Below are positions 2,780 through 51,499 of a stretch of DNA of 64,000 nucleotides, piece after piece. The DNA is taken from contig OZ024741.1 in NCBI GenBank assembly GCA_964016885.1, forward strand, positions 46,066,001 to 46,130,000. Direction: 5' to 3'. Made by a program: the position numbers and the translations under genes. This DNA comes from Eledone cirrhosa (taxonomy: Eukaryota). Each line of letters opens with the position of its first letter. Position 1 is the first letter of the stretch. Under the pieces are notes generated by a model, which did no database searches, was not told the origin of the DNA, and saw nothing but the letters and a program-made list of their open reading frames with translations.

Positions 2780-2814
<35 letters not shown>

Positions 2815-13464: not shown

Positions 13465-13619
13465 ATATCTTCCTGCCAGATTGTTGAACGTATATACTTA
13501 CCTTATGCATATTAACGGCTGAGTAGCCCAATTTGCATATCGAGTGGGTTATATATATATATATATTATGTGTGTATAAAGAGAGGAAGTATGAGAGAGA
13601 GTGGGGGAGAGCAAAGTTA

Positions 13620-22909: not shown

Positions 22910-23407
22910 ATATATGTATATATATATATATATACATATATAAAAGTGTCGAAGTCAGTGCTGCAACATGTGTACAAAATTTATTTCCACATTGCAATTA
23001 TTTTGATATCGATCAGCTCGGGGTACAATCACGGTGACGGGACCCGTCCCGTTTTCGGCATTTCATCAGATATGCGAGCTTATATATGCAAAGACACATC
23101 GAACAACGTACCGCCTGTAACTGTTGTTACATACCGAACTAACATATATGTAGATAAATAAATAGATATATTTCTTTATTAGCCACAGGGGCACAAAAGA
23201 AGGGGACAAATACAAAGGGGGAAGTTTACATACAATAAAAACGTGTAAAATGTTATCACAGATGGAATTTAAAAGTTAGTCGATTTTCCCCAATAGAGGG
23301 AGACAGTTTATATGGGTAACACATACCCCCGAAAAAAATGTGCAACCCTCATCTCCAGGAGTACGAAGAGCTTGTACTCCTTTCCTCTCCTCCTCCTTTT
23401 CCTCAAT

Positions 23408-24655: not shown

Positions 24656-27444
24656 CGAGATAACCGGATAACCGGATCCGCCTGCCAGAGGGCGGTGAGC
24701 GCCTGGGCACACTCAGTGTGCCAGGCGCCCAGTTTTCTCGGTCTTTGCTTGACCCAGGATTGCAGCTCGGTGAGTGAGACGAGTCTGGGAAAGGTTCGTC
24801 TCACAAACGAGGCCCACACCGGTTGTCCGGTGAGGAATACGTAGAGGTGCCGTAGCCTTAATGCGTGTTTACGCATCATTAGCCACGGCATCCCCAGCCC
24901 TCCTTTCGAAGGGTGTTGACAGCAGATGGATCTCCTCACCATAGGAGCCCGCCTCTTCCAAAGGAATTGGAAGAGCGCGCGCTCCATCTTGGTGAGGGTT
25001 TCCCTTGGGCAGGGCACTACGGTCAGGCGGTAGTAGATGACGGACGCTATATAAGTGTTCGCCACCTCCGCCCGACCTTTCAGGGATAGTTTGCAACTGG
25101 CCCACTTCTGGGTCAGTGCAAACACCCTGTTCGTAACCTCCGCCCAGTTTTTCTCCACCTGGAGGTCCGGTCCGAACCAGACCCCGAGCAACTTCACCGG
25201 GCCCTCCGTCCAGCGTCCGACGACGCCATCAGAGGGCATCGGTCTGCCCCTCCACGTGCCGAGTTGCAAACCGATCGACTTGTCCCGGTTCAGCTTAGCC
25301 CCTGTGAACTTTTCGTACTCCTCCAGTAAGGTGCCGACCGCCTCGATTTCGGAGGCCGTCGACACCATTACTGTCACATCATCGGCGTAGGCTGACACCG
25401 CTTTCCGCAATCCCGGTTCCAAAGGGATGCCCTGCAACAACTCCAACTTCCGCAGTAGTGGCTCGAGAGTCAACACATACAGAAGGGAGGAGAGAGGGCA
25501 CCCTTGTCGGATGGACCGCGCGATTTTGAACGGCTCCGAGAGGTAGCCGTTCACCTTGACCCTAGAGCAGATGCGGCTGCTGTGCATAGCAGTGATCCAG
25601 CCCCTGAAAACGGGTCCGAAGCCTGCCGCCGCTAGCACCGCATCCAGGTAACCATGGTCGACCCTATCGAACGCCTTAGATTGATCCAAGTTGATCAGAG
25701 CCCCACCAAAGCCGGGTTCGTTCCCAACCCTCTCTATGATGTATCGCATGAGGTGGAGGTTGTCATGGATGGACCTGGACGGGATAGCGCATGTCTGCGC
25801 ATCTCCCACCAGGTTGCCCACGACAAGCGCCAACCTCTTTGCTAGCACCTTGGCCAAAATCTGTAACTCTGTATTTAGCAGAGTTATGGGCCTGAAGTTA
25901 CTTATTTCGTCCCCCTTGTTCTCGTCCTTCCTCACTAGCGTGACTACGCCCTTGGTCACAGTACAGGGAATTATCCCGTTCTGTTGCCAGTTGCAGTAGA
26001 CCGCCTCGAGGAGATCGGGGAACAAGTCCGGCATAGCTAGATATAATTCGTAAGGAAGACCATCGAGACCCGGGGATTTGCGTTTGCCGCATTGGCTCAG
26101 CACGTCCTCTATCTCAGCGGCCGAAATCGGCTCCTCGCAGGACTTCGCCTCCCTGTCCGAGAGGCGCGGCAGGCCGTCGAGGTATGGACCGAAGTCCACG
26201 TTCCCAACCGGCTCCCCGCCCCTCCCGAACAGTCGGGCAAAGTGCCTTTGAAAGGCCTCACACATCTGCTTAGGCTCAAGAATTGCCCGTCCATCCAGGT
26301 CTCGCAAAGACCGGATGGTGGATTTAGTTCCACTGTTGGCCTCTGTCACGCGGGCCCAGCTAACAGCTTTGGCCCCCTCGTTCCCTAGAGCACGTATTTT
26401 ACTTCGGACAACGCAGCCTTCGTGCTTCGCGTCGAAAAACTGGCTCAAAGCCGTTCTCGACGCTAGCACTCTGGCCACGTCGCCGCTTCTAATTGCCTCT
26501 TCTACTCTATCTATTAGCTCCCTTTCCTTCCTATTCCTATCCGCAGCTAGAACCTTACTAAATTCAATCGAGACTACTCTAATCTCTCTCTTTAGAGATA
26601 CCCACCACCTGCTGTTGACGATCGCTCCAGTCAACCGTTCCTTAACTAACGTACTAATCCGATTCCTGTAGGCTCTACTTGCCGGCAAGGACAAGTTGAG
26701 CTTCCAGTAACCGGGGCCCTGTCTATGCGTTCTATCAAGGTTGACCATGCTGGTCACCAACTTGTGGTCTGAATAGCCAACCATGAGCATTTCTGGACAA
26801 CTTAAAAAGTCCCTGTCCTTATTTCTAACTAAAAATCTATCTAGGTACGATCTAGATGATCCGCTGCGATTTGACCAAGACCAGGTTGGCACCGTCGGAA
26901 AATCTAGTCGAAATCTATCGGCCAGGTCAAATCGGCCGAGTAACCCCTTGAGGCTGTTGCACCCCTCTCTATCGGGACATGCCCCTGCATAGTCCCAACG
27001 TGCATCCAGGATACCATTCCAATCCCCCACTAAAAGCAGGGAACGGGACGTCCCTAGAAAAGACTCCAGACGCTGGAAAAAGTCGGGCCGCTCTGTCCCA
27101 AAAGGGGCATATGCGGCTATCAGCCTAAGGGCTCTACCTTCACCACTGCCAATGTCCAGCACCACCAGTCGACCCCCTGGGTCCAAGTGAACTATCTGTG
27201 TTGCAAGGCCCATATGTTTTTGCAGCAGAACGACAACCCCACCCCCACCTCCGGGCTGACAGAGAGATGCGTGCATCTCAAAGTCGTCAAAGGTGGGGGC
27301 TAGCTGTCGCATGCTGCTGATCCGGGCCTCGCAGATAACCATCACATTTATAGATTGTGACCTGAGGTCATTTAGAAGCATTGCTTGCTTCCAAGACGAG
27401 CCCAGGCCACGCGCATTTAGACACCCTACTCTTAGCACAGCCAT
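24595..27444 (-). CDS. Tx1 ORF2: apurinic endonuclease plus reverse transcriptase (variant B; truncated at the chimeric junction)
   Basis: LNARGL, GDWN, YLDR, SDH (APE); KSPGLDG, FRPITLLN, DQSKAFD, RQGCPLS, YADD (RT). Confidence 0.93.
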   Translation of the reverse strand: MAVLRVGCLNARGLGSSWKQAMLLNDLRSQSINVMVICEARISSMRQLAPTFDDFEMHASLCQPGGGGGVVVLLQKHMGLATQIVHLDPGGRLVVLDIGSGEGRALRLIAAYAPFGTERPDFFQRLESFLGTSRSLLLVGDWNGILDARWDYAGACPDREGCNSLKGLLGRFDLADRFRLDFPTVPTWSWSNRSGSSRSYLDRFLVRNKDRDFLSCPEMLMVGYSDHKLVTSMVNLDRTHRQGPGYWKLNLSLPASRAYRNRISTLVKERLTGAIVNSRWWVSLKREIRVVSIEFSKVLAADRNRKERELIDRVEEAIRSGDVARVLASRTALSQFFDAKHEGCVVRSKIRALGNEGAKAVSWARVTEANSGTKSTIRSLRDLDGRAILEPKQMCEAFQRHFARLFGRGGEPVGNVDFGPYLDGLPRLSDREAKSCEEPISAAEIEDVLSQCGKRKSPGLDGLPYELYLAMPDLFPDLLEAVYCNWQQNGIIPCTVTKGVVTLVRKDENKGDEISNFRPITLLNTELQILAKVLAKRLALVVGNLVGDAQTCAIPSRSIHDNLHLMRYIIERVGNEPGFGGALINLDQSKAFDRVDHGYLDAVLAAAGFGPVFRGWITAMHSSRICSRVKVNGYLSEPFKIARSIRQGCPLSSLLYVLTLEPLLRKLELLQGIPLEPGLRKAVSAYADDVTVMVSTASEIEAVGTLLEEYEKFTGAKLNRDKSIGLQLGTWRGRPMPSDGVVGRWTEGPVKLLGVWFGPDLQVEKNWAEVTNRVFALTQKWASCKLSLKGRAEVANTYIASVIYYRLTVVPCPRETLTKMERALFQFLWKRRAPMVRRSICCQHPSKGGLGMPWLMMRKHALRLRHLYVFLTGQPVWASFVRRTFPRLVSLTELQSWVKQRPRKLGAWHTECAQALTALWQADPVIRLSRAEADRCLPMASSDAGRKDR

Positions 27445-27499
27445 GTTGGTGGTAAAGAGAAAAGGCACTTACCTCTCTGCGTCCCGGGAAACGGGCCGC

Positions 27500-29111
27500 T
27501 CAATTTCCATGCTGGTTGGGGATGGGTTGTTGGGTGGGGTGGTGGTTTGTGGAAGTGAGGGGGCATCGGTGTGTTGTGGGGTTGGGGTGTTTGTCGTTGA
27601 GAGGGTGTCTGGGTGGGGGGGGGGTGAAATTTTTTAGGAGGACGCGGTTGATTGGTTTGGCGCAGGGGGGGCCCACGTCCTCCGTGAAATTTATTTTCAG
27701 TGTTTTGTACAAGTGCATTGGGACTTTTATCATTTTCAAATGAGGTAGTCCCACAGCAGTTATAAAGTTTGGCCCTTCAGTTTGGACCGAAGGGTTTGCT
27801 GAAATTGTTTTCCGTAATTCTTTGTTGTCTGTGTTCATGTATGTGTATTGTAAGGTCTTTTTTTGTGTAGCAGTTAGTGTTGTGTGACAGGGAGGGGTGG
27901 TTTGTGTGTAGTTTGTGTTCTCTTGGGGGGGGGGTTAAAGTTAACATGTGTGTCTGTGGTGCGTCTCCTCTTCTTTCTTTTTACTTGTTGGAAGGGATCT
28001 TTTTCGTCTTGCGACGAAAGAGGTTCGTCTTCCTTGTTGGGTGGGAGGGGTATGTTTTCTGGTAGTGTTTGCGGTGTGCGTGTTTTTGTATTTGTTTTGG
28101 GTGGGGAGGGATTGGGTGGGACAGTATTCTGTGTTATTTTTTCACGTGTTTGTTGTTGTTGTTGTTGTGGTGGTGGTGGTGGGGTTGTTGGTTTTTGTTG
28201 TTGTTGTGGTTGTTTTTGTTGTTGTAGTTGGGGTGGTGTTGGTGTTGGTAGCAGTGTTTTTTTCTGTGTGAGCTGGGGACAGGCAGCCCTCAGGTGACCT
28301 CTATTGCCACAGAGGTAACAGGAGGGACGCCTACCCTCCACAATAATGTTGAGGTGGGTACGGTCATCCAGCATGACGCGCTCAGGGATTTGGGCGATGC
28401 GTTCTGGCCTTATTTGGGTCAGAACTTCGAGGCTCGTTCCACTGAACGCGTCGCCGGATGCCTTCCCTATTGAGATGAGGTTGTCCTCGTCTAAATTGAG
28501 GAAACCGGTTAGTAACCACCAGTAGTTTATGTTTGGGGTGATGGTGGTTATCCATATCCTCTGGGTTTTTTTACCCATGTAGGTGGGGAAGAAGGTGTAG
28601 TGTGTGGACCGAATTGGCGACACAGAGTATTTTTTTGCCGCCAATTCGTCTTTCATCAATATGGATAAACTCCCATAGAGTTTATCCTTTTGTATGAAAG
28701 TGATGTCTCTCATCGCGTCTTTCAAGACTAACTGAGTTTCCGCTTGAGATGGTTGCGCTGGTTTCTTTGTTTTATTTAAAATTGTTCGGAATACGACAGT
28801 TCGTAATTCCGTCTGTCTTTTTAGCTCCGGAGGTGAATGTATAGAAAACGAACCGTTTTCGCCAAAAGACACATATTTCTTGCCTTTTTCCAGCATTTCT
28901 TTTGCTTTTGAAATATCTTCCAGCACATAAGCGACTGATAATTTAGCCGTTTGTGCAAAAGATATTTTGTTTTCGTTTTGGATATTAGTATTGTTTTGTT
29001 TCTCGTCGTTTGAGTTGTTTTCATCTTTGTTGTTGTTGTTGTCTTTCTCGTTTCGTGTGTGGATACTTGTGACGTTTGTGTTGTTGTTGTTTTTGTTGTC
29101 TTTATTGTTGC

Positions 29112-29142
<31 letters not shown>

Positions 29143-29331
29143 GTTGTTTTCAAATTCTTGTGTAGTTGTGGCTACATCTAGTGGTCGGTCAACAGGTGAA
29201 GACAATTCTTCCTCTCTCTGACCTCTGCCTTTGGCATCTGCTGCTGTGACAGTGGCAGGGGGAAGCTGTGAGTATGACTTCCCATTTCCTTCTTTGATTG
29301 ATGGTGAAGATGCTTCAGCCATTTTTCTCAA
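27500..29331 (-). CDS. Tx1 ORF1 (gag-like, CCHC zinc knuckle), split by one frameshift near 27.9 kb
   Basis: CYLCGNRGHLRAAC. The C-terminal block NPSVQTEG.NF...EDVGPP..KPINRVLLK (27500..27838) is homologous to copy 3 ORF1. Confidence 0.85.
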
Positions 29332-29540
29332 AATAGGGTTTTTCGAAGTTTTTCGAAAGATAAAATGTTCACAATACTATTTCGCCCAAAGGCGCAGAAT
29401 ATTTTGAGAGACCGACCAGATCAAAATTTGACCTGGCAGTCCCTCTACAAAATGGTACAAAAATGAAAGTTTACAGTTTACAATTTCCGTATGAATTTAA
29501 ACAAAAACTTACCGAGCGAGCTCAGCACATGTGTCCATCG

Positions 29541-29572
29541 TAGAGATAGATAGATAGATAGATAGATAGATA
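29541..29572. repeat. (GATA)n spacer between Tx1 copies 1 and 2
   Basis: Read directly. Confidence 0.95.
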
Positions 29573-30986
29573 TATTTCTTTTATTTGCCACTAGGGCATC
29601 AAAAGTGGGACAAGTACAAAGGGGGGAGTTTACACAAAAAGGCGTCCTCAATAAGGAGGAGGCAATAACAAAATATAAAAATAAAATAAGATATAACAAA
29701 AAATAAAATTTTTAACAAAATCCTCAATAGAGAGGAGGCGCCTTGGGGGGTCGCACACACCCCCGAAAAAAGTGTGCAACCCTTCTCCTCAGGAGCACAG
29801 AGAAGGGGTGCTCCCTTGGTCTTTCATCTTCCTCACCTATAGTCTGATGTAGAGTGAAGGCCCATTCACACGGGCCATTCTCGCCACTTTCACCCATCTT
29901 TCATAGAAACGGCTGGGGTGCAGCACCTCTCTCTCCATCCTGATCCTTCTTCCGAAATGATATCGGAAGAAACGGACCAGTTGTTGGCCAGAGAGTAAGG
30001 TGCCCGACCTCAGTCCTTTCAGACGCGTCCACCATACAACCTCTTTCGCCATGGCTATTACGCACAGAAACACCGCCTCTGCTTCATCTTTGAAGGGGGG
30101 AGGCGGCTTGATCATTACAATAGACTCGGTGGTCAACCGGATCGGTCCCACCCTTGACAGCAGTTGTTCGACATAGCCCCACAGATCGGCTACGCCCGAG
30201 CAGTGTACTAATGCGTGTGCAACGGTTTCCTCGCCGCACACGCATCTGGGACAGATCTTTTTGGCGGGGTCCCTACCCGGGCGCTCGTGTCTGTAGAGCC
30301 TTTCTCGAACGGGTAAAGCCCCTCGGTAGCACTGCCAGGCCAGGGACTTCTGGAAGTTGTCCATAGGTCCCGGGCTGAATGTCCTACCGAACAGGCTGGC
30401 CAGTTCGTCCTCCTCCATGTCTAGGGCTTCTCCGAGGGCGTCGTCGCACCTGCTGCGTACCAGCCCTCTATAGAATGTTGCGGTGGAGTCTCCACTGATA
30501 ACCGGATCCGCCTGCCAGAGGGCGGTGAGCGCCTGGGCACACTCAGTGTGCCAGGCGCCCAGTTTTCTCGGTCTTTGCTTGACCCAGGATTGCAGCTCGG
30601 TGAGTGAGACGAGTCTGGGAAAGGTTCGTCTCACAAACGAGGCCCACACCGGTTGTCCGGTGAGGAATACGTAGAGGTGCCGTAGCCTTAATGCGTGTTT
30701 ACGCATCATTAGCCACGGCATCCCCAGCCCTCCTTTCGAAGGGTGTTGACAGCAGATGGATCTCCTCACCATAGGAGCCCGCCTCTTCCAAAGGAATTGG
30801 AAGAGCGCGCGCTCCATCTTGGTGAGGGTTTCCCTTGGGCAGGGCACTACGGTCAGGCGGTAGTAGATGACGGACGCTATGTAGGTGTTCACCACCTCCG
30901 CCCGACCTTTCAGGGATAGTTTGCAACTGGCCCACTTCTGGGTCAGTGCAAACACCCTGTTCGTAACCTCCGCCCAGTTTTTCTCC
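29573..30986 (-). mobile_element. 5'-truncated Tx1 copy 2 (variant B): ORF2 C-terminus (29837..30955) plus 3' UTR
   Basis: Nearly identical to 24667-25156 over the shared part; flanked by (GATA)n on both sides. Confidence 0.92.

Positions 30987-31025
<39 letters not shown>
30987..31025. repeat. (GATA)n spacer between Tx1 copies 2 and 3
   Basis: Read directly. Confidence 0.95.
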
Positions 31026-31239
31026 TTCTTTATTTACCATAAAGGCATAAAAAGAAGGGACAAATACAAAGGGGGAGTTTACATACAATCGAGTAAAAAG
31101 GGTATAAAATGAAAATAATCGAAAACAACCTCAAAAGGGAGGGGACGTGATGGGGGTTACACACACCCCCGAAAAAGTGTGCAATCCTTTGCCCGGGGAG
31201 CACATGGAGAAGGTGCTCCCCTCTCCTTCACTTCTTTAC

Positions 31240-34200
31240 CTACAGGATGGTATACAGAGAAGGCCCATTTACACGAGCCATTCCCGCCACTATCACCCAC
31301 CTTTCATAAAACTGCCTGTGGCCAAGCACCTCTCTCTCTATTCTTATCCTTCTTCCGAAGTGATATCGGAAGAAGTAGACCAGACTATGGCCAGAGAGGA
31401 AGTTGCCTGACCTCAGACCTTTCAATCGTGTCCACCAAACAACCTCTTTCAACATGGCTATTACGCACAGAAAAACCGCCTTTGCTTCCTTTGTGAAGAG
31501 GGGAGGCGGTTTGATTGTCATCACGGACTCGGCGGTCAATTGAATCGGCGCCACCCGCGACAGAAGTCGTTCGGCGTAGCCCCACAGATCAGCCACGCCC
31601 GGACATTGCACCAATGCGTGCGCAACGGTTTCTTCGTGACGCACGCATCTAGGGCAAATCTTTTTCGAGGGATCCCTGCCCGGGCGCCCGTGTCTGTAGA
31701 GCCTCTCTCGAACGGATAGAGCCCCCCGGTAGCACTGCCAGGCTAGTGACTTCTGGAAGTTGTCCATTGGTCCTGGGCCGAAAGTCCTACCGAACAGGCT
31801 GGCCAGTTCGTCTTCTTCCGTGTCCAGCGACTCTCCAAGGGTGTCATCGCCCCTGCTACCCACCAGCCCTCTATAGAATGATGAGGTGGGTTCTCCACCG
31901 ATGGCCTGGCCCGCTTGCCAGAGATCCCTGAGCGCCTGAGCACACTCAGTGTGCCAGTCTCCCAGTTTTTCGGATCTTTGCTTGACCCAGGACTGCAGCT
32001 CGGTGAGCGAGACGAGTCTCGGAAAGGCTCGTTTCACGAACGGAGCCCACACCGGTTGACCAGTGAGGAATACCTGTAGGTGCCGTAGCCTTAATGCGTG
32101 CTTACGCATCATCAACCACGGCATCCCCAGCCCTCCTTTCGAAGGTTGTTGGCAGCAGATGGATCTTCTCACCATAGGAGGGCGCTTCTTCCAAAGAAAT
32201 TGGAAGAGCATGCGTTCCATGGTGGTGAGTGTTTCCTTAGGGCAAGGCACGACAGTCAGGTGGTAGTAAGTGACGGACGCTATGTAAATGTTCGCCACCT
32301 CCGCCCGGCCTTTTAGGGACAGCTTACACTTGGCCCATTTCTGGGTTAGTGCAAACACCTTGTTCGTAACCTCGTCCCAGTTCTTTTCCACCTGGAGGTC
32401 CGGTCCAAACCAGACCCCAAGCAACTTTACCGGGCCCTCCGTCCAGTGTCCGACGACACCGTCGGGAGGCATCGGTCTGCCTCTCCACGTTCCGAGTTGC
32501 AGCCCGATGGATTTTTCCCGGTTATGTTTCGCTCCTGACAACCTTTCGTAATCCTCCAGTAAGGTACCGATCGCCTCGATCTCCGAGTCGGTCGATACCA
32601 TTACTGTTACGTCATCGGCGTAGGCCGACACCGCTTTGCTCAATCCTGGTTCCAGGGGGATACCCTGCAACAACTCTAACTTCCTCAGTAAAGGCTCGAG
32701 AGTCAATACGTACAGAAGGGAGGAGAGAGGGCACCCCTGTCGAATGGATCGTGTGATTTCGAACGGCTTCGAAAGGTAGCCGTTCACCTTGATCCTAGAA
32801 CAGATGTGGTTGCTATGTAAGGCAGTGATCCAGCCTCTGAAAACAGGACCGAACCCAGTCGCCGCTAGCACCGCATCCAGGTAACCATGGTCGACCCTAT
32901 CGAAGGCCTTAGACTGATCCAAGTTGATCAGGGCCCCACCGAAGCCGGGTTTGTTGCCAACCCTCTCTATTATGTATCGCATGAGGTGGAGGTTATCGTG
33001 AATGGACCTGGATGGGATAGCACATGTCTGCGCATCTCCCACCAGGCTACCCACGACAAGCGCCAACCTCTTTGCTAACACCTTGGCCAAAATCTTTAAC
33101 TCTGTGTTTAGCAGGGTTATGGGCCGAAAATTATTTATACTATCCCCCTTGTTCTCGTCCTTCCTCACCAGCGAGACTACGCCCTTGGCTACAGAACAAG
33201 GAATTCTCCCGTTCTGCTGCCAATTGCAGTAGACCGCTTCGAGGAGTTCGGAGAAGAAGACCGGCATTGCTAAATAAAGTTCGTAAGGTATACCATCGAG
33301 ACCTGGAGATTTGCGTCTGCTGCATTGGCTCAGCGCATCTCCGATCTCATCAGCCGAGATTGGTCCCTCGCAGGACTCTGCCTCTTCGCTCGAGAGACGC
33401 GGCAGGCGGTCGAGGTATGGACCGAAATCCACGTCCCCGCCCGGACCCTCGCCTCCCCCGAATAATCGGGCAAAGTGCCGTTGAAAGACCTCGCAAATCT
33501 GCTTAGGCTCCCGGATCACCCGTCCATCCTCGTCTTGCAACGACCGGATGGTGGATCGATTTCCACTCTTAGCTTCTGTGACGCGGGCCCAGCCAACGGC
33601 TTTGGCCCTCTCATTACCTAGAGCACGTATTTTACTTCGAATGACGCAGCCTTCGTGCTTTGCATCGAAAAACTGGTTCAAGGCCGTCCTCGATGCCAGC
33701 ACTCTGGCCACATCTTCGCTCTTGATTGCCTCTTCTAATTTACCTGTTAATTCTTTCTCGTTTCTATTCCTATCGGCAGCTAACATCTTGCTATAACTTA
33801 TTGATTCTGTTCTAATCTCTCTTTTGAGAGATGCCCACCATCGGTTGTTGACGATTGCACCCGTCAACCTCTCCTTAACTAATCTGCTAATCCGGTTTCT
33901 GTAAGTCTCTTTTGCCGGTAAAGACAAATTAAGTTTCCAGTAACCGGGACCCTGTTTATGTGTTTTCTAGAGATTGACTACGCAGGTCACTAATTTGTGA
34001 TCCGTATAGCCAACCGTGCGCATTTCTGGACAGCTTAATATGTCCCTATCCTTACTTCTAACTAAGAATCTATCTAAGTACGATCTAGATTGACCACTGT
34101 GGTTTCTCCAAGTCCAGGTAGGCACAGTTGGAAAATCTAGTCGATATCTATCGACCAAGTTAAAACGGTCGAGTAACCCCTTGAGGCTGTTACACCCCTC

Positions 34201-34675
34201 TATTAGGACATGCTCCTTCATAGTCCTAACGTGCATCTAGGATGTCATTCCAATCCCCCGCTAGAAGCAGGGAACGCGACGTTCCCAGAAAAGTCTCCAA
34301 ACGCTGGAAGAAGTCGGGCCGTTCAGCTCCGAAAGGGGAGTAGACGGCCACCAGTCTCAAGGCCGCACCTTCACTACTGCCAACGTCTAGCACCAACAAA
34401 CGACCCTCCGGGTCCGAGTGAACAACATGTACGGCAAGACCCAGGTGTTTTTGCAGCAGTACGACAACCCCACCCCCACCTCCAGGTTGACAGAGAGATG
34501 CATGCACCTCAAAGTCATCGAAGGTAGGGGCCAGCTGCCTCACGACGCTGATCCGAGTCTCACAGATAACCATTACATTTATACCACATGACCTGAGGTC
34601 ATTTAGAAGCTTGGCTTGCTTCCAAGTTGAGCCCAGGCCACGTGCATTCAAACATCCTACTCTTAACACATCCAT
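31240..34675 (-). pseudogene. Tx1 ORF2 (APE-RT-zinc motif) with stops and a frameshift in the endonuclease region
   Basis: ORF pieces 34226..34675, 33967..34236 and 31240..33927; YADD intact. Confidence 0.9.
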
Positions 34676-34708
34676 GTGGGCGGCAGAGCCAAAGGAGAGT
34701 GTAGAGAC

Positions 34709-36600
34709 CTACCTTTTTGCTTCCCGGGGTTCGGGTCGCACGACTTCCATGGGGTCGGGGGTGTTGGGTGAAGGGGTGTCTTGTGGTGGTGTGGGGTCGT
34801 CAGTGTGTGGTGGGGTTGGGGTGTTTGGAGTTGTGTTGGGGAGGGGAAGGGGAGGGGGAAAGCTTTTTAGTAGGACGCGGTTTATGGGTTTGACAAAGGG
34901 TGGTCCTACGTCCTCCTTAAAATCCTTTTTTAGTTTTTGGTAGAGGTTCATTGGGATCTTTATTAATTTTAAATGTGGGTAGTTTTCTGAAGAAACAAAG
35001 TTTACACCTTCGGTTTGTACCGAAGGATTATTGTTTATGAGTTCATTTAATTTATTATTGTTTCTGTTGATGTAAGTATAGTGTAATGTCTTTTTTTCGG
35101 ATGGTGTGAGTGTTTCGAAGAGGGGAGGGGCAGGTTTGGTTTTGTTTGTTGCTGGAGGGGTGTTTTGTGTTTTGTTGGATTGTGTTGACATTTGGGTGGG
35201 GGTTGTTTGGCCTTGTGTGTTTTGCACATGTTTTCTTTTTTTCCTTTTAATCTGTCTGAAGGACTCCGTTTCTTCCTCCGAATTCGTTGGGTTATCTTCA
35301 GTGTTGGGGGGAAGAGGTATGTTTGCTGGTAATGTTTCCGTGTTGGTTTTCTTTGTGGGGGAGATGGATGTCACTATGTTAGACTGTGTTGTGTGTTGTA
35401 GCTGCGGTGGTTGTGTTGTTTTATTGAGTGAGGGGTTGGGTGGGCCTGTATTTTGTGTGGGGTAATGTGTTGTGGTGGTGGTGTAGTTTTACTGAGGGAC
35501 GGGTTGGGTGGGACTGAGTTTTGTTGTTTGTTTATCTGTTGTGGTGGTGGTGGAGCTGGTGTTGGTAGCAGGGTTTTCTTTTTGTTGAGTTGGGGACAAG
35601 CCGCCTTCAGGTGCCCTCTGCCTGCACAGATATGACAGGACGGCCTTCTCCCCTCCACGCTAATGTTTGTATACCCGTGGCCCTCTAATAGGATTCTGTC
35701 GGGTATTTGTGCGATGCGTTCAGGCTTCATTTGCACTACAAGTTCTATACCTGTTCCACTGAACGCATTGCCTGTGGTTTTCCCAATGGAAATCACGCTG
35801 TCATTTGCTGGATCGATGAAGCCAGCTATGAGCCAGCAGTAGTCCACATCTGGCATCATTGCATCCAGCCATATGCGTTGAGTTCTTTTACCCATATAAG
35901 ATGGATAAAAGGTAAAAAATTTTGAACGAATCGGTGACAAAGCACATTTTTTTGCCGCCGATTCGTTCTTCATAATAATCGCTAGGCTTCCATACAGTCT
36001 GTCTTTTCTTATGAAAGTGGTTTCATTAAGTACTTCTGTAAGTACTGTTTTGATTTCTGTTTGAGTTGGCTGTTCAGGTTTTTTAGAAATGTTGTTGATG
36101 GTGCGGAAATCGACCGTTCGACTTTCAATGTCTTTGGTGAGTTCTTGAGGCATTTTTACCGATAAAATACCATTTTCTCCTTCAGTTATATATTGTTTGG
36201 CGTCTGTAATTCTTTGTGCCACATCTAAAATATTTTCAGGTATATATGTCAAAGATTTCTTTGTTGTTTGTGCAAATGAAATATTATTGGTGTTGACTTT
36301 GTCTTCTGCTTTGCTTTCTGTTATGATGTTGTTTTCAAATGTTATTTTTGTGTTTGTCGTGTCTTTGTTTGTGGTATTAATATTGTCATGCAATTTTTCA
36401 AATTTTTTTTTTTTTTCGTGGTTGGAATCAATGTCCAGATTTGTGTTTTCGTCATTTTTCTCCGCAGATTCGTCTGTTTTTATTTTATTTTTTCCTTCCT
36501 TCTCTATGACGTTAGTTGGGAAGGAAGAGGGGACTAAAGCGTGCGAGCTTACAACTCTTACCGCTGTCCCCCCCCCCCCCCCCCACCACTATTTTCATTA
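34709..36600 (-). pseudogene. Tx1 ORF1 with frameshift(s)
   Basis: 35374..36393 contains CHICAGRGHLKAAC; 34709..35374 holds the C-terminal block. Confidence 0.85.
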
Positions 36601-39508: not shown

Positions 39509-39553
<45 letters not shown>

Positions 39554-40093
39554 ATACTTGGGGAGGGTCATATTTGCGTAATATTGCCAGAATTAATAAC
39601 AGAACACACTCACTGTTTGGTTGGTTTTCGCTTCTCGCTGTCTTTTATATCTGTGATCTAACTTAATCGGTCCTCAATGTTGCCATTGACTGACCGACGG
39701 TCAAAAATAATACAGATACAATATAGACACAAACACATATGTATAGTTTACATAATTTACATAAATCTTTCGTTGCACATCTGCAACATCGTCAGTGGTG
39801 TTATATATTATTTCCTCCTGTTGTGTTGTATGTCTACGCTATTTTTTTTATTCAGTCTGTCTATATATTTATTTATTTATTTGCTTGTTTGTTTATTTTA
39901 TTTTGTCTTCTTTGCGCATGCGTTTGCGTGTGTGTATAGTGTTATGTGTGATGTGTGACTAGTGTGTATAGTGTTGTGTCTGCTGGGTGACTAGTGTGTG
40001 TTTATGTGCTTGTTGTTATTGTGCTTGTGTATGTATTTATTTATCTTATTTTATTTTATTTTATTTTATTTTATTTACTTATTTATACTTCTC

Positions 40094-40741
40094 TTAGGTC
40101 AGTGTTGTTTGTTTGGGTGTTGTTGTTGTCCACTCATTCTTTCTGTTTAGCTTTGGTCTTCTAATTTCTATTTCACTGGCCTCTCTGATTTGCCCATCTG
40201 CTGGGTCATTCCTATGTTTAGATATTATTCTAATTTCTATGTTTTCTATGTTACCGTCATGTTGTTGTCTAGCATGTTCGTATAGTACTGACCCGTTTTT
40301 TCGTCCTTTTAGTTCCCCCCAGTGTTGGTCTATCCTTTCACCTATGCTACGAGCTGTTTCGCCTATGTATGTTGTTGTCATGTTTCTGCAAGTACCCTCT
40401 ATACATCTTATGCCATAGACTACGTTTCTAGTTTTACAGTTTATCCGGGGGTTCACCTTACATATGATACATTTCCTATTGGTACAGTGGGTTTTCTTAA
40501 AGGGGTAGGTTTTGCTGATCAGGGATTTTATGGTGGTTCCTGGCTTTTCTACCACCTTTATTTTTAAGTGGGTCTTTCTCAGGGCCTTTCTACACTGGTT
40601 AGCTAATTTCCCTCCAGGGGTGGCGTCCACAAACATGACATTCTGATATCTCTGGTTGTCGTACCATGATGTGGCCTTCCCTATCTTATGTCTAGCCCTA
40701 TCTAAGCTATTCCATGATTTGCTCCTGTATAATGGGCAAAT
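40094..40741 (-). CDS. PLE ORF C-terminus in the inverted arm: intact Cys-rich linker plus GIY-YIG endonuclease
   Basis: HCTNRKCIICK...NCKTRNVVYGIRC...YIGETARSIGER...REASEI...PKLN. Confidence 0.85.
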   Translation of the reverse strand: MCPLYRSKSWNSLDRARHKIGKATSWYDNQRYQNVMFVDATPGGKLANQCRKALRKTHLKIKVVEKPGTTIKSLISKTYPFKKTHCTNRKCIICKVNPRINCKTRNVVYGIRCIEGTCRNMTTTYIGETARSIGERIDQHWGELKGRKNGSVLYEHARQQHDGNIENIEIRIISKHRNDPADGQIREASEIEIRRPKLNRKNEWTTTTPKQTTLT

Positions 40742-41173
40742 TCCTAGAATAATATCTAAACATAGGAATGACCCAGCAGATAGGCAAATCAGAGAGGCCA
40801 GTGAAATAGAAATTAGAAGACCAAAGCTAAACAGAAAGAATGAGTGGAACAACAACAACACCCAAACAAACAACACTGACCTAACAGAAGTATAAATAAG
40901 TAAATAAAATAAAATAAAATAAAATAAAATAAGATAAATAAATACATACACAAGCACAATAACAACAAGCACATAAACACACACTAGTCACCCAGCAGAC
41001 ACAACACTATACACACTAGTCACACAGCAAACGTAACACTATACACACACGCAAACGCATGCGCAAAGAAGACAAAATAAAATAAACAAACAAGCAAATA
41101 AATAAATATATAGACAGACTGAATAAAAAATGGCGTAGACATACAACACAACAGGAGGAAATAATATACACCA

Positions 41174-41225
41174 CTGACGATGTTGCAGATGTGCAACGAA
41201 AGATTTATGTAAATTATGTAAACTA
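41174..41225 (+). ncRNA. Partial hammerhead-like motif in the PLE pLTR (copies at about 45257-45308 + and 39745-39795 -)
   Basis: CTGACGA-T-GTTGCA GATG TGCAAC-GAAA present; stems I and III are imperfect. Confidence 0.4.
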
Positions 41226-41319
41226 TATATATGTGTTTGTGTCTATATTGTATCTGTATTATTTTTGACCGTCGGTCAGTCAATGGCAACATTGAGGACC
41301 GATTAAGTTAGATCGCAGA

Positions 41320-41361
41320 TATAAAAGACAGCGAGAAGCGAAAACCAACCAAACAGTGAGT
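41320..41361 (+). promoter_or_regulatory. Putative PLE pLTR promoter: TATA box and downstream CAGT(GAGT)
   Basis: TATAAAAG at 41320-41327 and CAGT about 35 nt later, upstream of the ORF; repeated at about 45403. Confidence 0.35.
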
Positions 41362-41397
41362 GTGTTCTGTTATTAATTCTGGCAATATTACACAAAT

Positions 41398-44300
41398 ATG
41401 ACCCTCCCCAAGTATAACAATATTTGTTTCGACACACGATTTCATATAAAAAACCTCGCTAAACTAATTCATCGCCGCTACGGCATTAGCTTGTGCCAAG
41501 CTGAAAGGTTATTGAAAGACACTGTTTTCTGTTATATAAAAACTACAATAACAACAGAACAAATCCGCTTCTTAAAACACTGTGTTTCCTCCAAAACATA
41601 CACAACAAACATATCAAAACAAGTAAATAATTTATTATTGAACAAAACACAAGCCGAACGACTAAAACACACAATAACAGTTAATATGAAAAGAACAACA
41701 TACACAAAAGTCAACGCACTCTACAAACAGAAACGCATTAACGGTAAGGAAATCCGAAATCTCATCACACCAAACGAGAGAGATAACTTCATGAGCGCCA
41801 TCAGACGTGAAACGAAATACGCTCAAAACGAATGCAATAGGTATTTCAAGAAGAAATTAGAATGGATGAATAAGAAAAAACTACAAGAAAGGAAAACCGA
41901 ATATTCTCAAAAATACCCAGATAACATCGACAATATCCGTATGACTGATGTAAAACTACCGGAAGAATTTACCAATGACCACACAGTAAATATCTATGGG
42001 AACACTTTAATCAGCGAACAAGAACAACAAATCCTACTGTTACCACCAAAATTTGCCATCTACAAAAAGATTAACCCTATGGAGTGCAAAACGTAGCTGG
42101 AAAAGTGTTTCACAAAAATACGTTGGAATGCAAAGGTAAACAACAACAACAATAATAACGGTAGTAGTAATATAAACAATAACTCTGAGTATAGAAATAA
42201 CAGCCATAACCATAACAATGGCAGGAAAGTGAGAAATAGTGATAATGGTAATAATACTAGCGATAGACAGAACAACAACAACCACAATAATAATAATAAT
42301 AGAAACGTTATCCACAGACACAGCGACAGTGACCACAGTAGTAATAACGGTAACAATACGAACAACAACAACAACAATAACCACAGTGGTAATAATGGAA
42401 ATAGTACATGTAGCAACATCAACAAAAATAAGAAACATAATAATAGTAACAACCACAATGGTAGAAATAACAGTAACAACAACAACAATAACGGTGAAGT
42501 AAACAACAATACATCTAGCAATCATAACAATAATAATAATGCTAATGATAGAAACAACAACAACCACCCTGATAACAACAATAGCAACACACACACACAC
42601 AACTATGACGATAGATATAATGACAACCCCTTAGAGAAACTATTTTTCAACCCAGCTGACAAAACATATAAGATGGGTAATATCTATCCTACGAGGTTAC
42701 CCTTTAATAAAAGAGTTTGCATACCACAGCAAATAGATGACGAGACAGAGGCACAGTTCACCATAGCTAGAAATAAGATTAGACAAGTAGTAGACAGGTA
42801 TACTAAGAGACAGAGCAGATCAGAGGCCCAACAACTTGGGAGGAAACCTGTAGAAGGCTTGGTTAGCCTCAAGCAGCGCACAAGGGATGGTAGGATGTCA
42901 ATAGATAGCATGTCGAACTACATCGAGGCTATGCAACCCCACATCACCAACACGAGCGAAGTTGCACAACAAACACACGATGGGAGAGAAAAAATCCTCA
43001 ACGCTCACATGATGATGTGGACTGACATCCTAAAGCCAAGCAGACGCACTGCCAACAACTTCCAGGCGTTTAACAATGGCATACCACCCTTGTATGGGCT
43101 CCGCAAAGACCACAAGACAGTCGACGGCCCGACAACAGGACCACCAACAAGACCCGTATGCGGAGCTAATATAGCTAGCAACTACAGGATCTCCTACTTC
43201 CTCTCGATGGTTATACGCCGCATAATCAAGATGTCCCCAGATGTATGTGAAAGTACAGAGGACCTCCTCAGCAGAATCAGTGAGTGCAACAAAAACAGGA
43301 GCCTATCCAACTGCATAATAGGCAGCATGGATGTGGTGTCACTGTACCCATCCATTAACATTGATTTTGCTGTGAAAAGATGTGTGGAGATGATCATCGA
43401 GAGTGAGGTGGAGTTCTGCGACGTCGACACAGACGAACTGGGCCTCCTACTTAGACTTACCTACGACACTGACTACCTAGACAGCCATGACCTTAGATGT
43501 TTCTGCCCTAGTAGACCTATAAGAGGTAGACCCCCCACCATAACCTCAATGGCAAAAAAGACTCCCATGGGAAGGTGGATTGGGTGGACCAAAGCTATAC
43601 GGACCCCCCAAAACAATGATCAGGTAAGAAAAATGGTCGCACATGCAATAGGGGCTAGTATCAAAACTACCCTAAAGGGCCACATATTTAAGTTCAATGA
43701 GAAAATCTACACCCAAAATGAGGGAGCAGCCATTGGCGTCAGCATAGCTGGTGATGTTACCAACCTTTTCATGGTATGGTGGGAAAGGAGACTTAAAGAT
43801 CTCCTTAATGAAAGCTCCATAGACCTCATCATGTACTCTCGTTATGTAGACGATATCAATATAGTTATAAGAACACCCCCACTAGAGAGCACTAACAAGT
43901 TTGAATTAGAACGTAGCACGATGGAAAGCATCCAGCAGATAGCTAATTCCATACACCAGAGCATAACTGTAACTATCGACTTCCCTTCCAAACACCCTAA
44001 CAATAGACTACCTGTATTAGACACAGAACTCTGGATTAACACTATAGACGAGAGAGGCCAAATTCTCCACTCACACTATGCTAAACCCATGGCCTCTAAA
44101 TACCTGATACTCAAAAACTCAGCAATGTCCAGTAGTGCTAAGTTTAATATTCTGATCGCAGATTTGGTACGAGTGATGAAGAATGTGTCCAGCATGTGCG
44201 ACCCAACAGAAATGGAAAGACACATCCAACACTTCATCAACCGCATGCAGTTCTCTGGCTACAACCAAAGAGACAGAGTCAGAGTATACGAAGGAGCCAT

Positions 44301-44978
44301 GGAAAAGTATAAGACCCTCATAGAACTGGACATGAAAGGAATTTGCCCATTATACAGGAGCAAATCATGGAATAGCTTAGATAGGGCTAGACATAAGATA
44401 GGGAAGGCCACATCATGGTACGACAACCAGAGATATCAGAGTGTCATGTTTGTGGACGCCACCCCTGGAGGGAAATTAGCTAACCAGTGTAGAAAGGCCC
44501 TGAGAAAGACCCACTTAAAAATAAAGGTGGTAGAAAAGCCAGGAACCACCATAAAATCCCTGATCAGCAAAACCTACCCCTTTAAGAAAACCCACTGTAC
44601 CAATAGGAAATGTATCAAAACTGTAAAACTAGAAACGTAGTCTATAGCATAAGATGTACAGAGGGTACTTGCAGAAACATGACAACAACATACATAGGCG
44701 AAACAGCTCGTAGCATAGGTGAAAGGATAGACCAACACTGGGGGGAACTAAAAGGACGAAAAAACGGGTCAGTACTATACAAACATGCTAGACAACAACA
44801 TGACGGTAACATAGACAACATAGAAATTAGAATAATATCTAAACATAGGAATGACCCAGCAGATAGGCAAATCAGAGAGGCCAGTAAAATAGAAATTAGA
44901 AGACCAAAGCTAAACAGAAAGAATGAGTGGAACAACAACAACACCCAAACAAACAACACTGACCTAACAGAAGTATAA
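41398..44978 (+). pseudogene. PLE polyprotein (N-terminal domain, Asn-rich insert, RT, GIY-YIG) with a TAG at 42094-42096 and a frameshift near 44615
   Basis: LYGLRKDHK, RPVCG, SMDVVSLYPSI, GAAIG, RYVDD, LPVLD; then VVYSIRC...YIGETAR. Confidence 0.9.
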
Positions 44979-45634
44979 ATAAGTAAATAAAATAAAATAA
45001 AATAAAATAAAATAAGATAAATAAATACATACACAAGCACAATAACAACAAGCACATAAACACACACTAGTCACCCAGCAGACACAACACTATACACACT
45101 AGTCACACAGCAAACGTAACACTATACACACACGCAAACGCATGCGCAAAGAAGACAAAATAAAATAAACAAACAAGCAAATAAATAAATATATAGACAG
45201 ACTGAATAAAAAATGGCGTAGACATACAACACAACAGGAGGAAATAATATACACCACTGACGATGTTGCAGATGTGCAACGAAAGATTTATGTAAATTAT
45301 GTAAACTATATATATGTGTTTGTGTCTATATTGTATCTGTATTATTTTTGACCGTCGGTCAGTCAATGGCAACATTGAGGACCGATTAAGTTAGATCGCA
45401 GATATAAAAGACAGCGAGAAGCGAAAACCAACCAAACAGTGAGTGTGTTCTGTTATTAATTCTGGCAATATTACACAAATATGACCCTCCCCAAGTATAA
45501 CAATATTTGTTTCGACACACGATTTCATATAAAAAACCTCGCTAAACTAATTCATCGCCGCTACGGCATTAGCTTGTGCCAAGCTGAAAGGTTATTGAAA
45601 GACACTGTTTTCTGTTATATAAAAACTATATATA

Positions 45635-45740
45635 TATCTCAACTGTCTTCATGGTTCAATTCCAATATGAGCAGTACTGGAATATTGGCAGTACTGCCAA
45701 TACTGCAATTGGAATTGAACCATCAAGACAGTTGAGATAT
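45635..45740. repeat. Imperfect palindrome (hairpin) immediately after the PLE
   Basis: ATCTCAACTGTCTT.ATGGTTCAATTCCAAT ... ATTGGAATTGAACCAT.AAGACAGTTGAGAT. Confidence 0.8.
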
Positions 45741-46298: not shown

Positions 46299-46669
46299 CA
46301 ATGATATTAAATAACTGGAAACTATATTTATAAAACCATATTTATTCTATTATGTATATTTCAAGGGTACCAAAAATTTTGGTACGCTATCATCAGATAA
46401 AATACAAAATGTTTTATAAATATTTGACATGACCAAAGATAATATACCTTAACTGTTCAAGTTATGTCTGGAAAGTCTTCTACATATATATATATATATA
46501 TAAAGAATTAGTATATCTACCAACATATGTATACAGATGCATACCTATGCTAGCAAATATATATGTTTTGTCTTAGTAACTTTGTGGTTCTATGCAAGGA
46601 GATGCAGAAAAATTATATGAAAGACGTAGATAAGAAAGTTATGAAAATTGACTTACTTACTAAAATGTC

Positions 46670-46750
46670 ACTCCAACTAATTAGTTTCTGTAAGGGAATA
46701 AATATGGTTACGGAGCGTATCGACAGAGAAACCTTACGTCATCAGGGAGT
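46670..46750 (-). ncRNA. Type I hammerhead ribozyme with large loop II (family C, inverted arm)
   Basis: Reverse complement: ACTCC-CTGATGA-CGTAAGG...CCTTACA-GAAA-CTAATTAG-TT^GGAGT. Confidence 0.8.
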
Positions 46751-47323
46751 CTATTCTCAGCTAAGCTTCCAGGCAATGCGAGGACACTGGGAATTATATA
46801 AAAATAATTCAGTGGATGGAAAAAAGCGAGCGGGGACTAAATTCCAAGACATTGAAAAATTCACTGCCTACTTGGTCAGTGAAATTTTAGTAAGTAAGGC
46901 AATTTTCATAACTTTCTTATTTACGTCTTTCATATAATTGTTCTGCATCCCCTTGCATAGAACCACAAAGTTACTAAGACAAAACATATATATTTGCTAG
47001 CATAGGTATGCATCTGTATACATATGTTGGTAGATATACTAATTCTTTATAATTATCTCCAAATTATTTGTTGAGCAAAACTGCCGAAATTACTACTATG
47101 GTTCATGGTAGTGTCTAGGCCCTTGTCTTAATAGCACCCCACTCCTCACTGATTAACCTCAGTGTCACGTGATTGATTCTTTTGAATTTGCCACTGACCA
47201 AATAGCCAGTGAATTTTTCAATGTCTTGGAATTTAGTCCCCGCTCGCTTTTTTCCATCCATTGAATTATTTTTATATAAGTTCCCAGTGTCCTCGCATTG
47301 CCTGGAAGCTTAGCTGAGAATAG

Positions 47324-47404
47324 ACTCCCTGATGACGTAAGGTTTCTCTGTGGATACGCTCCGTAACCATATTTATTCCCTTAGAGAAACTAATTAGTTG
47401 GAGT
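47324..47404 (+). ncRNA. Type I hammerhead ribozyme with large loop II (family C)
   Basis: ACTCC-CTGATGA-CGTAAGG...CCTTAGA-GAAA-CTAATTAG-TT^GGAGT; palindromic stem III. Confidence 0.78.
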
Positions 47405-47791
47405 GAAATTTTAGTAAGTAAGTCAATTTTCATAACTTTCTTATTTACGTCTTTCATATATATATATATATAGTTATGTAATAAACAACATAAGGCAATT
47501 ATTCCATTTACCAGTGGTTTCTTAAAAGCAAAAAATTTTGCTTTATCAGAAAGAAAAAATCTTGGTCTGTTTATTGAATTTGGATTTTAAAAACGAAAAT
47601 GCAATCTATATGAAAGTGAGGCTGGAGAAAGAAGAAGGAAAGGAAAAATAAAATAAAAACACACATGCAAACACAGACACACACACACAAATGCATACAA
47701 ACACACCCCACCACCACCCCACTCTCAAGAGCGTGAAATTAATAAACATTCGTTGTACTGCCTCTCTGTTTTGTTCCTGTTCAAATTTTCC

Positions 47792-48286: not shown

Positions 48287-48290
<4 letters not shown>

Positions 48291-49190
48291 AAATAACGAA
48301 ACGAAATTAAATTTCGTTTCGCTTCTAACTCACTTTTGTATGACTGACGCTTAAACAATTAAGTTAAAGTGTACATCTACATATGTATACGGAAGTATTA
48401 GTATGCATATAAATACACACATGTATACATATGTACATGTACTGAATTTTTCACTGGACACTTTACAGTGAGTGTCCAGCTAGTCTGTATGTAACCACAC
48501 AGGGTTTTAGAGTCATACGAGTTTGACCGGGTTTTAGAGTCAAACTCGTATGACTCTAAAACCCGGTCCGTCTGTGTGGGTACATACAGACTAGCTGGAC
48601 ACTCACTGTAAAGTGTCCAGTGAAAAACTCAGTACATGTACATATGTATACATGTGTGTATTTATATGCATACTAATACTTCCGTATACATATGTAGATG
48701 TACACTTTAACTTAATTGTTTAAGCGTCAGTCATACAAAAGTAAGTTAGAAGCGAAACGAAATTTAATTTCGTTTCGTTATTTGTTTTTATCGTTTCCGC
48801 TGAACCGGTGCGTACAATGACTCACGTTCTATGCAAATTAGTCTACCCACTACTAATTTTCATAGAAAAAGCATATAACGATATATGCTTTTACAATTCT
48901 CTAGAGAAGCCGGAAGATGGGTATATATTGCTGATGAGATGTAATAACATCGAAACTAGTCCAATATTCCTGTCTGGCTCTCTGGAGAATAGAGGAAATG
49001 TGTTTCCTTGAAAACTCGTATGACTCTAAAACCCGGTCCGTCTGTGTGGTTACATACAGACTAGCTGGACACTCACTGTAAAGTGTCCAGTGAAAAACTC
49101 AGTACATGTACATATGTATACCTGTGTGTATTTATATGCATACTAATACTTCCGTATACATATGTAGATGTACACTTTAACTTAATTGTT

Positions 49191-50924: not shown

Positions 50925-51018
50925 GTGTGTGCGTGTGTGCGTGCGATGGTAGCTAAGAGGCTTCCATAGGCGGTATCCCGGTTGAGTACTCTATGCTCTT
51001 ACAGAGCAGAGTATGATA

Positions 51019-51345
51019 GAATAGAAAACGAAAAATCAGTGATGCATCTGAACTCAATTTATTCTGTGTTACAATTGTTTCGCTGACGGACAGCTCGAGA
51101 CGCAATCATTGTGTGGATCTGTCTGATTCTGGACCCGCAGGTTCGACGGACACGTCTAAAGATTTCGGACCATATTTCCAGTGAGAGAATATGCTCCGAA
51201 ATCATTAGACATATCCGTCGAACCTGCGGGTCCAGAATCAGACAGATCCACACAATGATCGCGTCACGAGCTGTCCGACGGGGAAACAATTGTAACACAC
51301 AATAAATTGAGTTCAGATGCATCACTGATTTTACGTTTTCTATTC
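51019..51345. repeat. ~325-bp near-perfect palindrome next to (TA)n
   Basis: Arms of about 155 bp around a short loop near 51180. Confidence 0.9.
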
Positions 51346-51346
51346 A

Positions 51347-51499
<153 letters not shown>

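What the first reader, a model, noticed from the sequence alone, without database searches (positions are those of the whole stretch)
46499..47460. Family C: circular permutation and a strand switch at the ribozyme cleavage site
Seen: the inverted arm, read in sense, runs through the HHR and on into sequence found only at the start of the forward copy (to ...AATTCTTTA), so the template is circular or tandem with a 524-nt period. The forward copy begins at AGTGAAATTT (46878), two bases after the predicted GUU^GGAGUG cleavage site. Inference: cDNA synthesis reached the 5' end of a self-cleaved RNA and switched template, a genomic footprint of in vivo cleavage.
Basis: partly seen in the sequence, partly recalled or inferred. 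Interest (0 to 1): 0.78.

Follow-up and report, generated by a model that had tools for sequence, protein, structure and literature searches.

The report
Ribozyme cut footprint in retrozyme insertions
This is one copy of an abundant non-coding, hammerhead-bearing repeat inserted as two head-to-head arms into (TA)n; across the genome the arms' 5' ends pile up about three-fold at and just inside the predicted ribozyme cut site, which is likely a DNA record of self-cleaved RNA being reverse-transcribed by a Penelope-like element.

Summary
The geometry is confirmed: a 524-nt non-coding unit with a type I hammerhead, an inverted arm (46499-46881) and a forward arm (46878-47460), joined by AGTG two bases past the predicted GUU^GG cut. 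It is a non-LTR retrozyme with the known Penelope-like architecture, with over a thousand arms in a 3.0-Gb genome. The ribozyme is under selection: stems I and II covary.

In 186 insertions sampled by 3' end, 32 of 314 5' ends (29-30 after curation) lie at -2..+9 of the cut, against 9.6 expected. Symmetric joints number 82 at a 6-nt palindrome just inside the cut and 6 at a 12-nt palindrome just outside. In five insertions both arms stop at the cut without microhomology. About 90% of ends lie elsewhere, and the excess is a plateau peaking at +6, so RT stalling on stem I is not excluded. This one junction has roughly 0.6-0.7 odds of belonging to the excess.

The arms are two priming events, not one strand switch: 107 of 109 pairs use complementary 3' sites 115 nt apart. 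Circle versus linear multimer is unresolved, and no RNA was seen.

The parts
46484..46498 (.). (TA)n target, left side
   Evidence: sequence
46499..46881 (-). Inverted arm, unit ~318-524 then 1-174; its 3' end is priming site 174
46499..46613 (-). 115-nt 'tail' (unit 60-174) found at the end of this arm only
   Evidence: 107 of 109 canonical pairs have the tail on one arm only
46670..46750 (-). Type I hammerhead in the inverted arm (stem II GTAAGG/CCTTAC intact); predicted cut between 46675 and 46674; read through
46878..46881 (.). AGTG microhomology joining the two 5' ends, at +2..+5 from the predicted cut
46878..47460 (+). Forward arm, 583 nt = one 524-nt unit + 59 nt; its 3' end is priming site 59
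46986..47041 (+). Long predicted hairpin (unit 109-164) between the two priming sites, kept mostly through G-U changes on the sense strand
   Evidence: prediction
47324..47404 (+). Type I hammerhead: ACTCC / CTGATGA / stem II with long structured loop / GAAA / palindromic stem III / GTT^GGAGT; predicted cut between 47399 and 47400; read through
47402..47460 (+). 59-nt terminal repeat of 46878-46936 (pseudo-LTR-like partial tandem)
47461..47472 (.). (TA)n target, right side
   Evidence: sequence

Best explanation
This is a non-coding 524-nt hammerhead repeat inserted as two head-to-head arms in (TA)n, likely copied in trans by a Penelope-like reverse transcriptase/endonuclease that primes once on each target strand at two fixed RNA sites 115 nt apart, with a minority of cDNAs likely running off an RNA 5' end made by hammerhead self-cleavage. 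Shown by sequence: the architecture, the two 3' ends (unit 59 and 174, both ending in TATA that matches the target), their near-strict complementarity, ribozyme covariation, and the excess of 5' ends at -2..+9. Inferred: both strands of (TA)n are nicked; each 3' OH anneals by TA microhomology and primes cDNA on a multimeric or re-ligated RNA; most cDNAs stop at random (median arm 318 nt); about 6-7% of passes through a ribozyme site end there because the RNA ends there; the two cDNA 3' ends are then joined by short microhomology, blunt, or with filler, often after trimming back to the first palindrome inside the cut (AAATTT). The focal forward arm would have read through one uncut site and stopped at the next, cut one, then annealed by AGTG.
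For: Ribozyme: in 224 distinct intact copies stem II pairs change on both sides (U-A 143 / A-U 76 / C-G 3; G-C 188 / U-A 26) and stem I shows a compensated insertion (5+5 nt 160 copies, 6+6 nt 40, 6+5 nt 19). End rule: 52 of 54 and 55 of 55 canonical partner arms use the other site (p 2e-29 against 50:50). Unselected 5' ends: 32 of 314 at -2..+9 vs 9.6 expected, ratio 3.3 in anchor arms and 3.4 in partner arms, scan p <2e-4; 24 vs 9.6 (scan p 0.018) without the four insertions scored as AAATTT/AAATTT; upstream control window 11 vs 9.6; 29-30 after curation, p about 1-3e-7. Targeted genome-wide set: 35 ends at 0..-2 vs 22 at -3..-8, null share 0.34, p 2e-5; seen in both GG (23 vs 17) and GGG (12 vs 5) subfamilies, each scored at its own predicted cut. 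Symmetric joints genome-wide: 82 at the 6-nt palindrome inside the cut, 6 at the 12-nt palindrome just outside, 1 at an 8-nt palindrome at unit 288. Five insertions have both arms ending at or within 1 nt of the cut with no microhomology or with filler (L253, L324, L341, L345, L359); about 0.1-0.2 expected if ends were flat and independent. Both arms in the window: 7 of 130 (6 without L130), about 1.5 expected. Precedents: two RT start sites, both strands cut and extended in vitro (PMC11167929); ribozyme cut sets R2 5' junctions (PMC3774820 abstract).
Against: No RNA or cleavage was observed. 282 of 314 ends lie outside the window, and 1799 GG-type plus 476 GGG-type exact read-through copies exist. 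The excess is a plateau with its mode at +6 (14 of 32 scored), which is also where RT would meet stem I; -2..+5 alone gives 13 vs 6.6 (p 0.018, scan p 0.95). Exact position 0 is only 6 vs 4.5 expected in GG copies and 4 vs 1.3 in GGG copies. The 82:6 contrast is inflated because the 12-nt pattern excludes the GGG subfamily and the longer palindrome can fold on itself; the 82 were not all inspected. The window was chosen after seeing the data (hence the scan p). No autonomous partner with matching sequence was found. In the anole element the ribozyme was dispensable in vitro, no RNA-seq reads began at its cut, and priming needed no homology (PMC11167929).
Confidence: 0.7

Rival explanations
1. 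Same element and two-priming insertion, but the excess of ends comes from reverse transcriptase stalling on the folded ribozyme (stem I and its extension), not from a cut RNA.
For: Mode of ends at +6, just 3' of the G-C-rich stem I strand; downstream window +10..+21 is also slightly high, 15 vs 11; extended stem I is predicted.
Against: The density drops upstream of -2 in both subfamilies; five double stops sit on the predicted bond, not at +5/+6; the longer hairpin at unit 109-164 shows no comparable peak (bins 105-164: 14, 8, 11, 7, 7 vs 8.0, 8.4, 8.7, 8.9, 4.9; limited power).
Confidence: 0.15
2. The RNA 5' end at this site is a transcription start from an internal promoter rather than a ribozyme product.
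For: It would also give a physical 5' end; TTAGTT just upstream resembles an initiator motif (recalled, untested); PLE pLTRs are thought to hold promoters (PMC11167929).
Against: Stops coincide with the bond that hammerhead chemistry predicts and follow it in the GGG subfamily; the extra G first taken for a cap signature is templated by that subfamily.
Confidence: 0.07
3. Junction position is set by microhomology and A/T-rich palindromes alone; the match to the cut is chance, for the family and for this locus.
For: 96 of 130 inverted joints overlap by 1 nt or more, 34 by 4 or more; the focal joint has AGTG; symmetric joints also occur at other palindromes (unit 134, 143, and AGCT near +20).
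Against: A longer palindrome 6 nt away is used 6 times against 82; excess persists without the AAATTT joints; double stops lack microhomology. For the focal junction alone this rival keeps about one third of the odds.
Confidence: 0.05
4. One reverse transcriptase, primed once, reached the cleaved end and switched strand to make the inverted arm.
For: Arms of one insertion are always of one subfamily (3.1% apart vs 10.3% median to other insertions) and share template variants (L163, L366).
Against: Both arms end at fixed priming sites fused to (TA)n, and use different sites in 107 of 109 pairs; a fold-back would mirror one arm, whereas the focal inverted arm holds sequence from another register.
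Confidence: 0.03

Closest known systems
Metazoan non-LTR retrozymes (Cervera and de la Pena 2020, PMC7229834; Li et al. bioRxiv 10.64898/2026.07.22.740005)
   Same: Non-coding tandem unit with one type I hammerhead, GC 36%, strongly self-paired (circular fold z -7.3, 0 of 40 shuffles as good), thousands of dispersed copies, proposed mobilisation by PLEs.
   Different: Unit is 524 nt against about 150-450 described; insertions are short, dispersed, mostly inverted pairs with two fixed 3' ends; circRNA and cleavage are not shown here; the parts of these papers that I read report no junction mapping.
Penelope-like elements, e.g. Poseidon of Anolis (PMC11167929), Naiad/Chlamys (PMC8557442)
   Same: 5' truncation, partial tandem, inverted 5'-truncated copy, tail on one end only, two RT start sites, microsatellite targets, hammerhead upstream of the start sites.
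   Different: No ORF; tail 115 nt instead of 30-40; priming sites end in TATA matching the target whereas the anole element primed without homology; genomic ends mark the ribozyme cut whereas none were seen in anole RNA-seq.
R2 non-LTR retrotransposon with HDV-like ribozyme (PMC3774820, abstract)
   Same: Self-cleavage makes the template 5' end, and junctions form by chance microhomology when the cut is at the element's end.
   Different: Different ribozyme and RT class; in R2 the cut defines full-length ends, here it accounts for only about 6-7% of passes.
L1 twin priming (recalled, not read)
   Same: Two primers from the two target strands give a 5' inversion joined by microhomology.
   Different: L1 arms cover non-overlapping parts of one RNA with a variable second site; here arms overlap in sequence and both sites are fixed.

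Membership tests
non-LTR retrozyme | Type I hammerhead in each repeat unit | tested here: met
   Core, three stems and covariation in 224 copies; no Rfam hit
non-LTR retrozyme | [quoted passage not shown] | tested here: met
   Motif pairs about 525 nt apart; 10 of 314 arms exceed 1048 nt; the focal insertion has one ribozyme per arm
non-LTR retrozyme | No protein coding | tested here: met
   Longest stop-free stretch 41 aa sense, 82 aa antisense in the tandem unit
non-LTR retrozyme | Unit of about 150-450 nt | tested here: not met
   524 nt; a described range rather than a strict criterion (PMC7229834)
non-LTR retrozyme | Self-paired RNA | tested here: met
   Circular MFE -131 kcal/mol, z -7.3; pair-keeping G-U changes on the sense strand
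non-LTR retrozyme | Self-cleavage and accumulation as circular RNA | not testable with these tools
   Needs RNA; only indirect genomic evidence for cleavage
non-autonomous Penelope-like element | 5'-truncated partial tandems with an inverted 5' copy | tested here: met
   130 of 186 insertions have an inverted partner
non-autonomous Penelope-like element | Tail on one end from two RT start sites | tested here: met
   107 of 109; 115 nt rather than 30-40
non-autonomous Penelope-like element | Microsatellite targeting | tested here: inconclusive
   877 and 304 ends fused to (TA)n, but the sample was selected on that; 26 score-ranked insertions not so selected also end in TA nearly throughout
non-autonomous Penelope-like element | Sequence kinship with the pLTR of an autonomous PLE | tested here: inconclusive
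   No similarity to the neighbouring PLE (best E 0.014); no shared ORF-like body at the 5' joint of 59 solo-arm rows; no genome-wide partner search was possible
autonomous Penelope-like element | ORF with RT and GIY-YIG endonuclease | tested here: not met

The most novel reading that the evidence does not exclude
The genome records, at thousands of insertions, both halves of the Penelope-type reaction in vivo: a dimeric RT-endonuclease primes the two strands of (TA)n at two obligatorily different RNA sites 115 nt apart, and hammerhead self-cleavage of the template terminates cDNA synthesis at a measurable rate of about 6-7% per site, including at second-pass sites, implying partly cleaved linear multimers serve as templates beside or instead of circles.
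Probability: 0.5. Interest if true: 0.68.

Novelty: new variant of a known kind. Interest (0 to 1): 0.52.

Why it matters
How Penelope-like elements make their tandem/inverted ends and what their hammerheads do in vivo are stated open questions (PMC8557442); the one in vitro study found the ribozyme dispensable and saw no reads at its cut (PMC11167929), and PLE mobilisation of retrozymes is a hypothesis (PMC7229834; bioRxiv 2026.07.22.740005). A short, high-copy family gives countable junctions: a retrozyme with PLE insertion hallmarks, a near-strict one-site-per-strand priming rule, and an indirect estimate of in vivo cleavage. The same junction table can be drawn for any PLE or retrozyme family. 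The element type and architecture themselves are known.

Tried and rejected
Extra G at the cut as a non-templated base, cap copy or RT jump: rejected; GGG is an inherited subfamily (476 copies, present in all units of an insertion, compensated in stem I), and my first hand tally of 23 ends at position 0 fell to 10 among fetched rows once scored by subfamily. The first 30 loci were not used for counts because a full-length query selects for arms starting near position 1. Control scan at the same GTTGG context (unit 149-153): dominated by a subfamily variant, 100 of 308 rows seen, uninformative. Circle versus multimer by register: in-register 2.7%, off-register 2.6%, tandem 3.1%; 95 vs 78 informative sites, p 0.22; does not decide; L118 and L201 have tandem units 15-21% apart, which a monomer circle cannot give. 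Rfam: no match. Phage collection: no match. One search had wrong coordinates for three rows and was discarded. L039 was dropped as a duplicate and restored. No earlier scan notes for this genome.

Full report
Observation. The coordinates are right. The window holds a forward arm (46878-47460) with a 59-nt direct repeat at spacing 524 and an inverted arm (46499-46881) that, in sense, runs from about unit 318 through the ribozyme to unit 174. Both outer ends are 3' ends fused to (TA)n; the two 5' ends meet at AGTG, in the register +2..+5 after the predicted cut. There is no other copy in the window. The genome is 3.0 Gb; exact 3'-end patterns give 877 arms ending at unit 174 and 304 at unit 59, lower bounds.

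The ribozyme. Rfam gives nothing, but the core is complete (hammerhead consensus recalled). Among 224 distinct intact copies from 380 loci, stem II pairs in 211-224 of 224 at each position with two-sided changes at two positions; the only freely varying core base is N7; stem I has 5+5 nt in 160 copies, 6+6 nt in 40 and 6+5 nt in 19. Copies count sequences, not independent events: these are a few subfamily changes. Stem III is a short palindrome, the kind reported to work best as a dimer in axolotl (PMC7229834). The unit has no ORF, is 36% GC and folds as a circle far better than shuffles (z -7.3).

Sample. I took the first 100 listed matches of each 3'-end pattern (100 of 877, 100 of 304, in genome order), mapped arms against natural monomers from other loci, and dropped 14 rows (13 duplicates or same-locus rows and the focal locus), leaving 186 insertions, 316 arms, 314 with a visible 5' end. 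130 have an inverted partner. Where the partner ends at a canonical site it is the other site in 107 of 109 cases; 21 partners end elsewhere and 56 insertions have none. So each arm is its own priming event and the 115-nt stretch between the sites is a tail carried by one arm. This matches PLE descriptions (inverted 5'-truncated copy, tail often at one end; PMC8557442) and the two RT start sites with both strands cut in vitro (PMC11167929), though the near-strict complementarity and the TATA match to the target are not reported in what I read.

32 of 314 ends fall at -2..+9 of the cut against 9.6 expected (ratio 3.3; scan p <2e-4), equally in anchor and partner arms; the upstream window is flat (11 vs 9.6) and the downstream one slightly high (15 vs 11). 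Curation removes L130 (two ends, really a joint near +20) and L163 (a template-borne deletion), leaving 29-30 (p 1-3e-7). A genome-wide pattern for arms starting at -9..+2 gave 99 rows; 92 were fetched, 14 set aside as read-through variants, 78 scored with a heuristic subfamily call that is doubtful for about four rows; 7 unfetched rows were not counted. Ends at 0..-2 (flanking T's extend the apparent end) outnumber those at -3..-8 by 35 to 22 against a null share of 0.34. Symmetric joints occur 82 times at AAATTT (+6..+11), 6 times at the 12-nt palindrome (-12..-1) and once at unit 288. Five insertions among 380 loci, all from the targeted sets, have both arms ending at the cut without microhomology. 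Together this is what a physical RNA end at the scissile bond, followed by trimming to the nearest annealing site, would leave.

Against. About 90% of ends lie elsewhere; over 2,200 exact read-through copies exist. The excess, about 20 of 323 passes (6-7%), is a plateau peaking at +6; -2..+5 alone is not significant under a scan, and position 0 itself is only mildly raised. RT stalling at stem I could make part of it. The palindrome contrast has the biases named above. For the focal junction, about two thirds of in-window ends are excess, so cleavage is the likelier but not the certain cause.

Template. Arms of one insertion are always close kin and repeated parts differ equally in or out of register, fitting a circle or a homogeneous multimer. 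Stops at second-pass sites (about 5 vs 2 expected, p 0.05; also L341, L345 and the focal arm) and two insertions with 15-21% divergent tandem units point to linear multimers or template changes for at least some. Unresolved.

Helper. A PLE-like element sits 870 nt to the left (39546-45629): weak RVT_1 hit (E 2.8e-4, under cutoff), a GIY-YIG-like motif by eye (recalled), its own hammerhead core, an inverted arm and two TA-fused ends about 124 nt apart. It shares no sequence with the unit. It is a candidate only.

Literature. Read: PMC11167929 parts 1-2 of 4; PMC7229834 parts 2-4 of 6; bioRxiv 10.64898/2026.07.22.740005 part 1 of 5 and 4 passages; PMC8557442 12 of 15 passages; PMC3774820 abstract and outline. 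Others were seen as search listings only; L1 twin priming is recalled. No supplements were read; Fig. S2 of PMC11167929 and Fig. S9 of PMC7229834 may bear on novelty. Six searches showed no report of genomic 5' ends enriched at a hammerhead cut in PLEs or retrozymes; the library lacks most subscription papers, including older Penelope work.

Verdict. Real feature of a known kind: it works like a non-autonomous Penelope-like element and meets the sequence-level tests for a non-LTR retrozyme, apart from a longer unit; RNA-level membership is untested. What is new is the family-wide evidence for a cleavage footprint and the complementary priming rule. Interest 0.52.

Noticed in passing
window 39546-45629: Penelope-like element with RT and GIY-YIG-like frames (frame broken near 44640), hammerhead cores at 39795, 41174, 45257, an inverted arm and two TA-fused 3' ends about 124 nt apart; 1885 first-look candidates in the genome.
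   Followed up: partly
window 7432-8255, 12883-13554, 22422-22760: Another partial-tandem family with a minimal hammerhead-like core (7625, 8096, 13037, 13458, 22604); related core at 48931.
   Followed up: no
window 8458-9688: Inverted pair of about 130 nt with a hammerhead-like core and long stem II (8575, 9571).
   Followed up: no
L163 / L266 (G000:C1 near 299.08 Mb): All three repeats lack the ribozyme core by a deletion ending exactly at the predicted cut; a ribozyme-less template of about 457 nt was still inserted with both arms.
   Followed up: partly
L322 (700-800): A family arm starting at the cut is joined head-to-head to about 40 nt of the neighbouring PLE family's sequence; either a two-RNA chimera or a copy of adjacent DNA.
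   Followed up: partly
L288, L325, L346: Short direct duplications of the first 10-12 nt after the cut placed before the arm, as if RT re-primed at the RNA end.
   Followed up: no
listing (e.g. L233, L250, L258): A related family with altered stem I 3' strand shares the downstream motif.
   Followed up: no
window 23339-36600: Several copies of a LINE-like element with endonuclease-RT frames (up to 957 aa) and upstream ORF1-like frames on the minus strand (annotation by eye).
   Followed up: no
window 1050-3440: Long low-complexity minisatellite giving spurious long ORFs.
   Followed up: no
window 48288-49092, 51016-51348, 45638-45736: Further small inverted or palindromic insertions of the same general look.
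   Followed up: no
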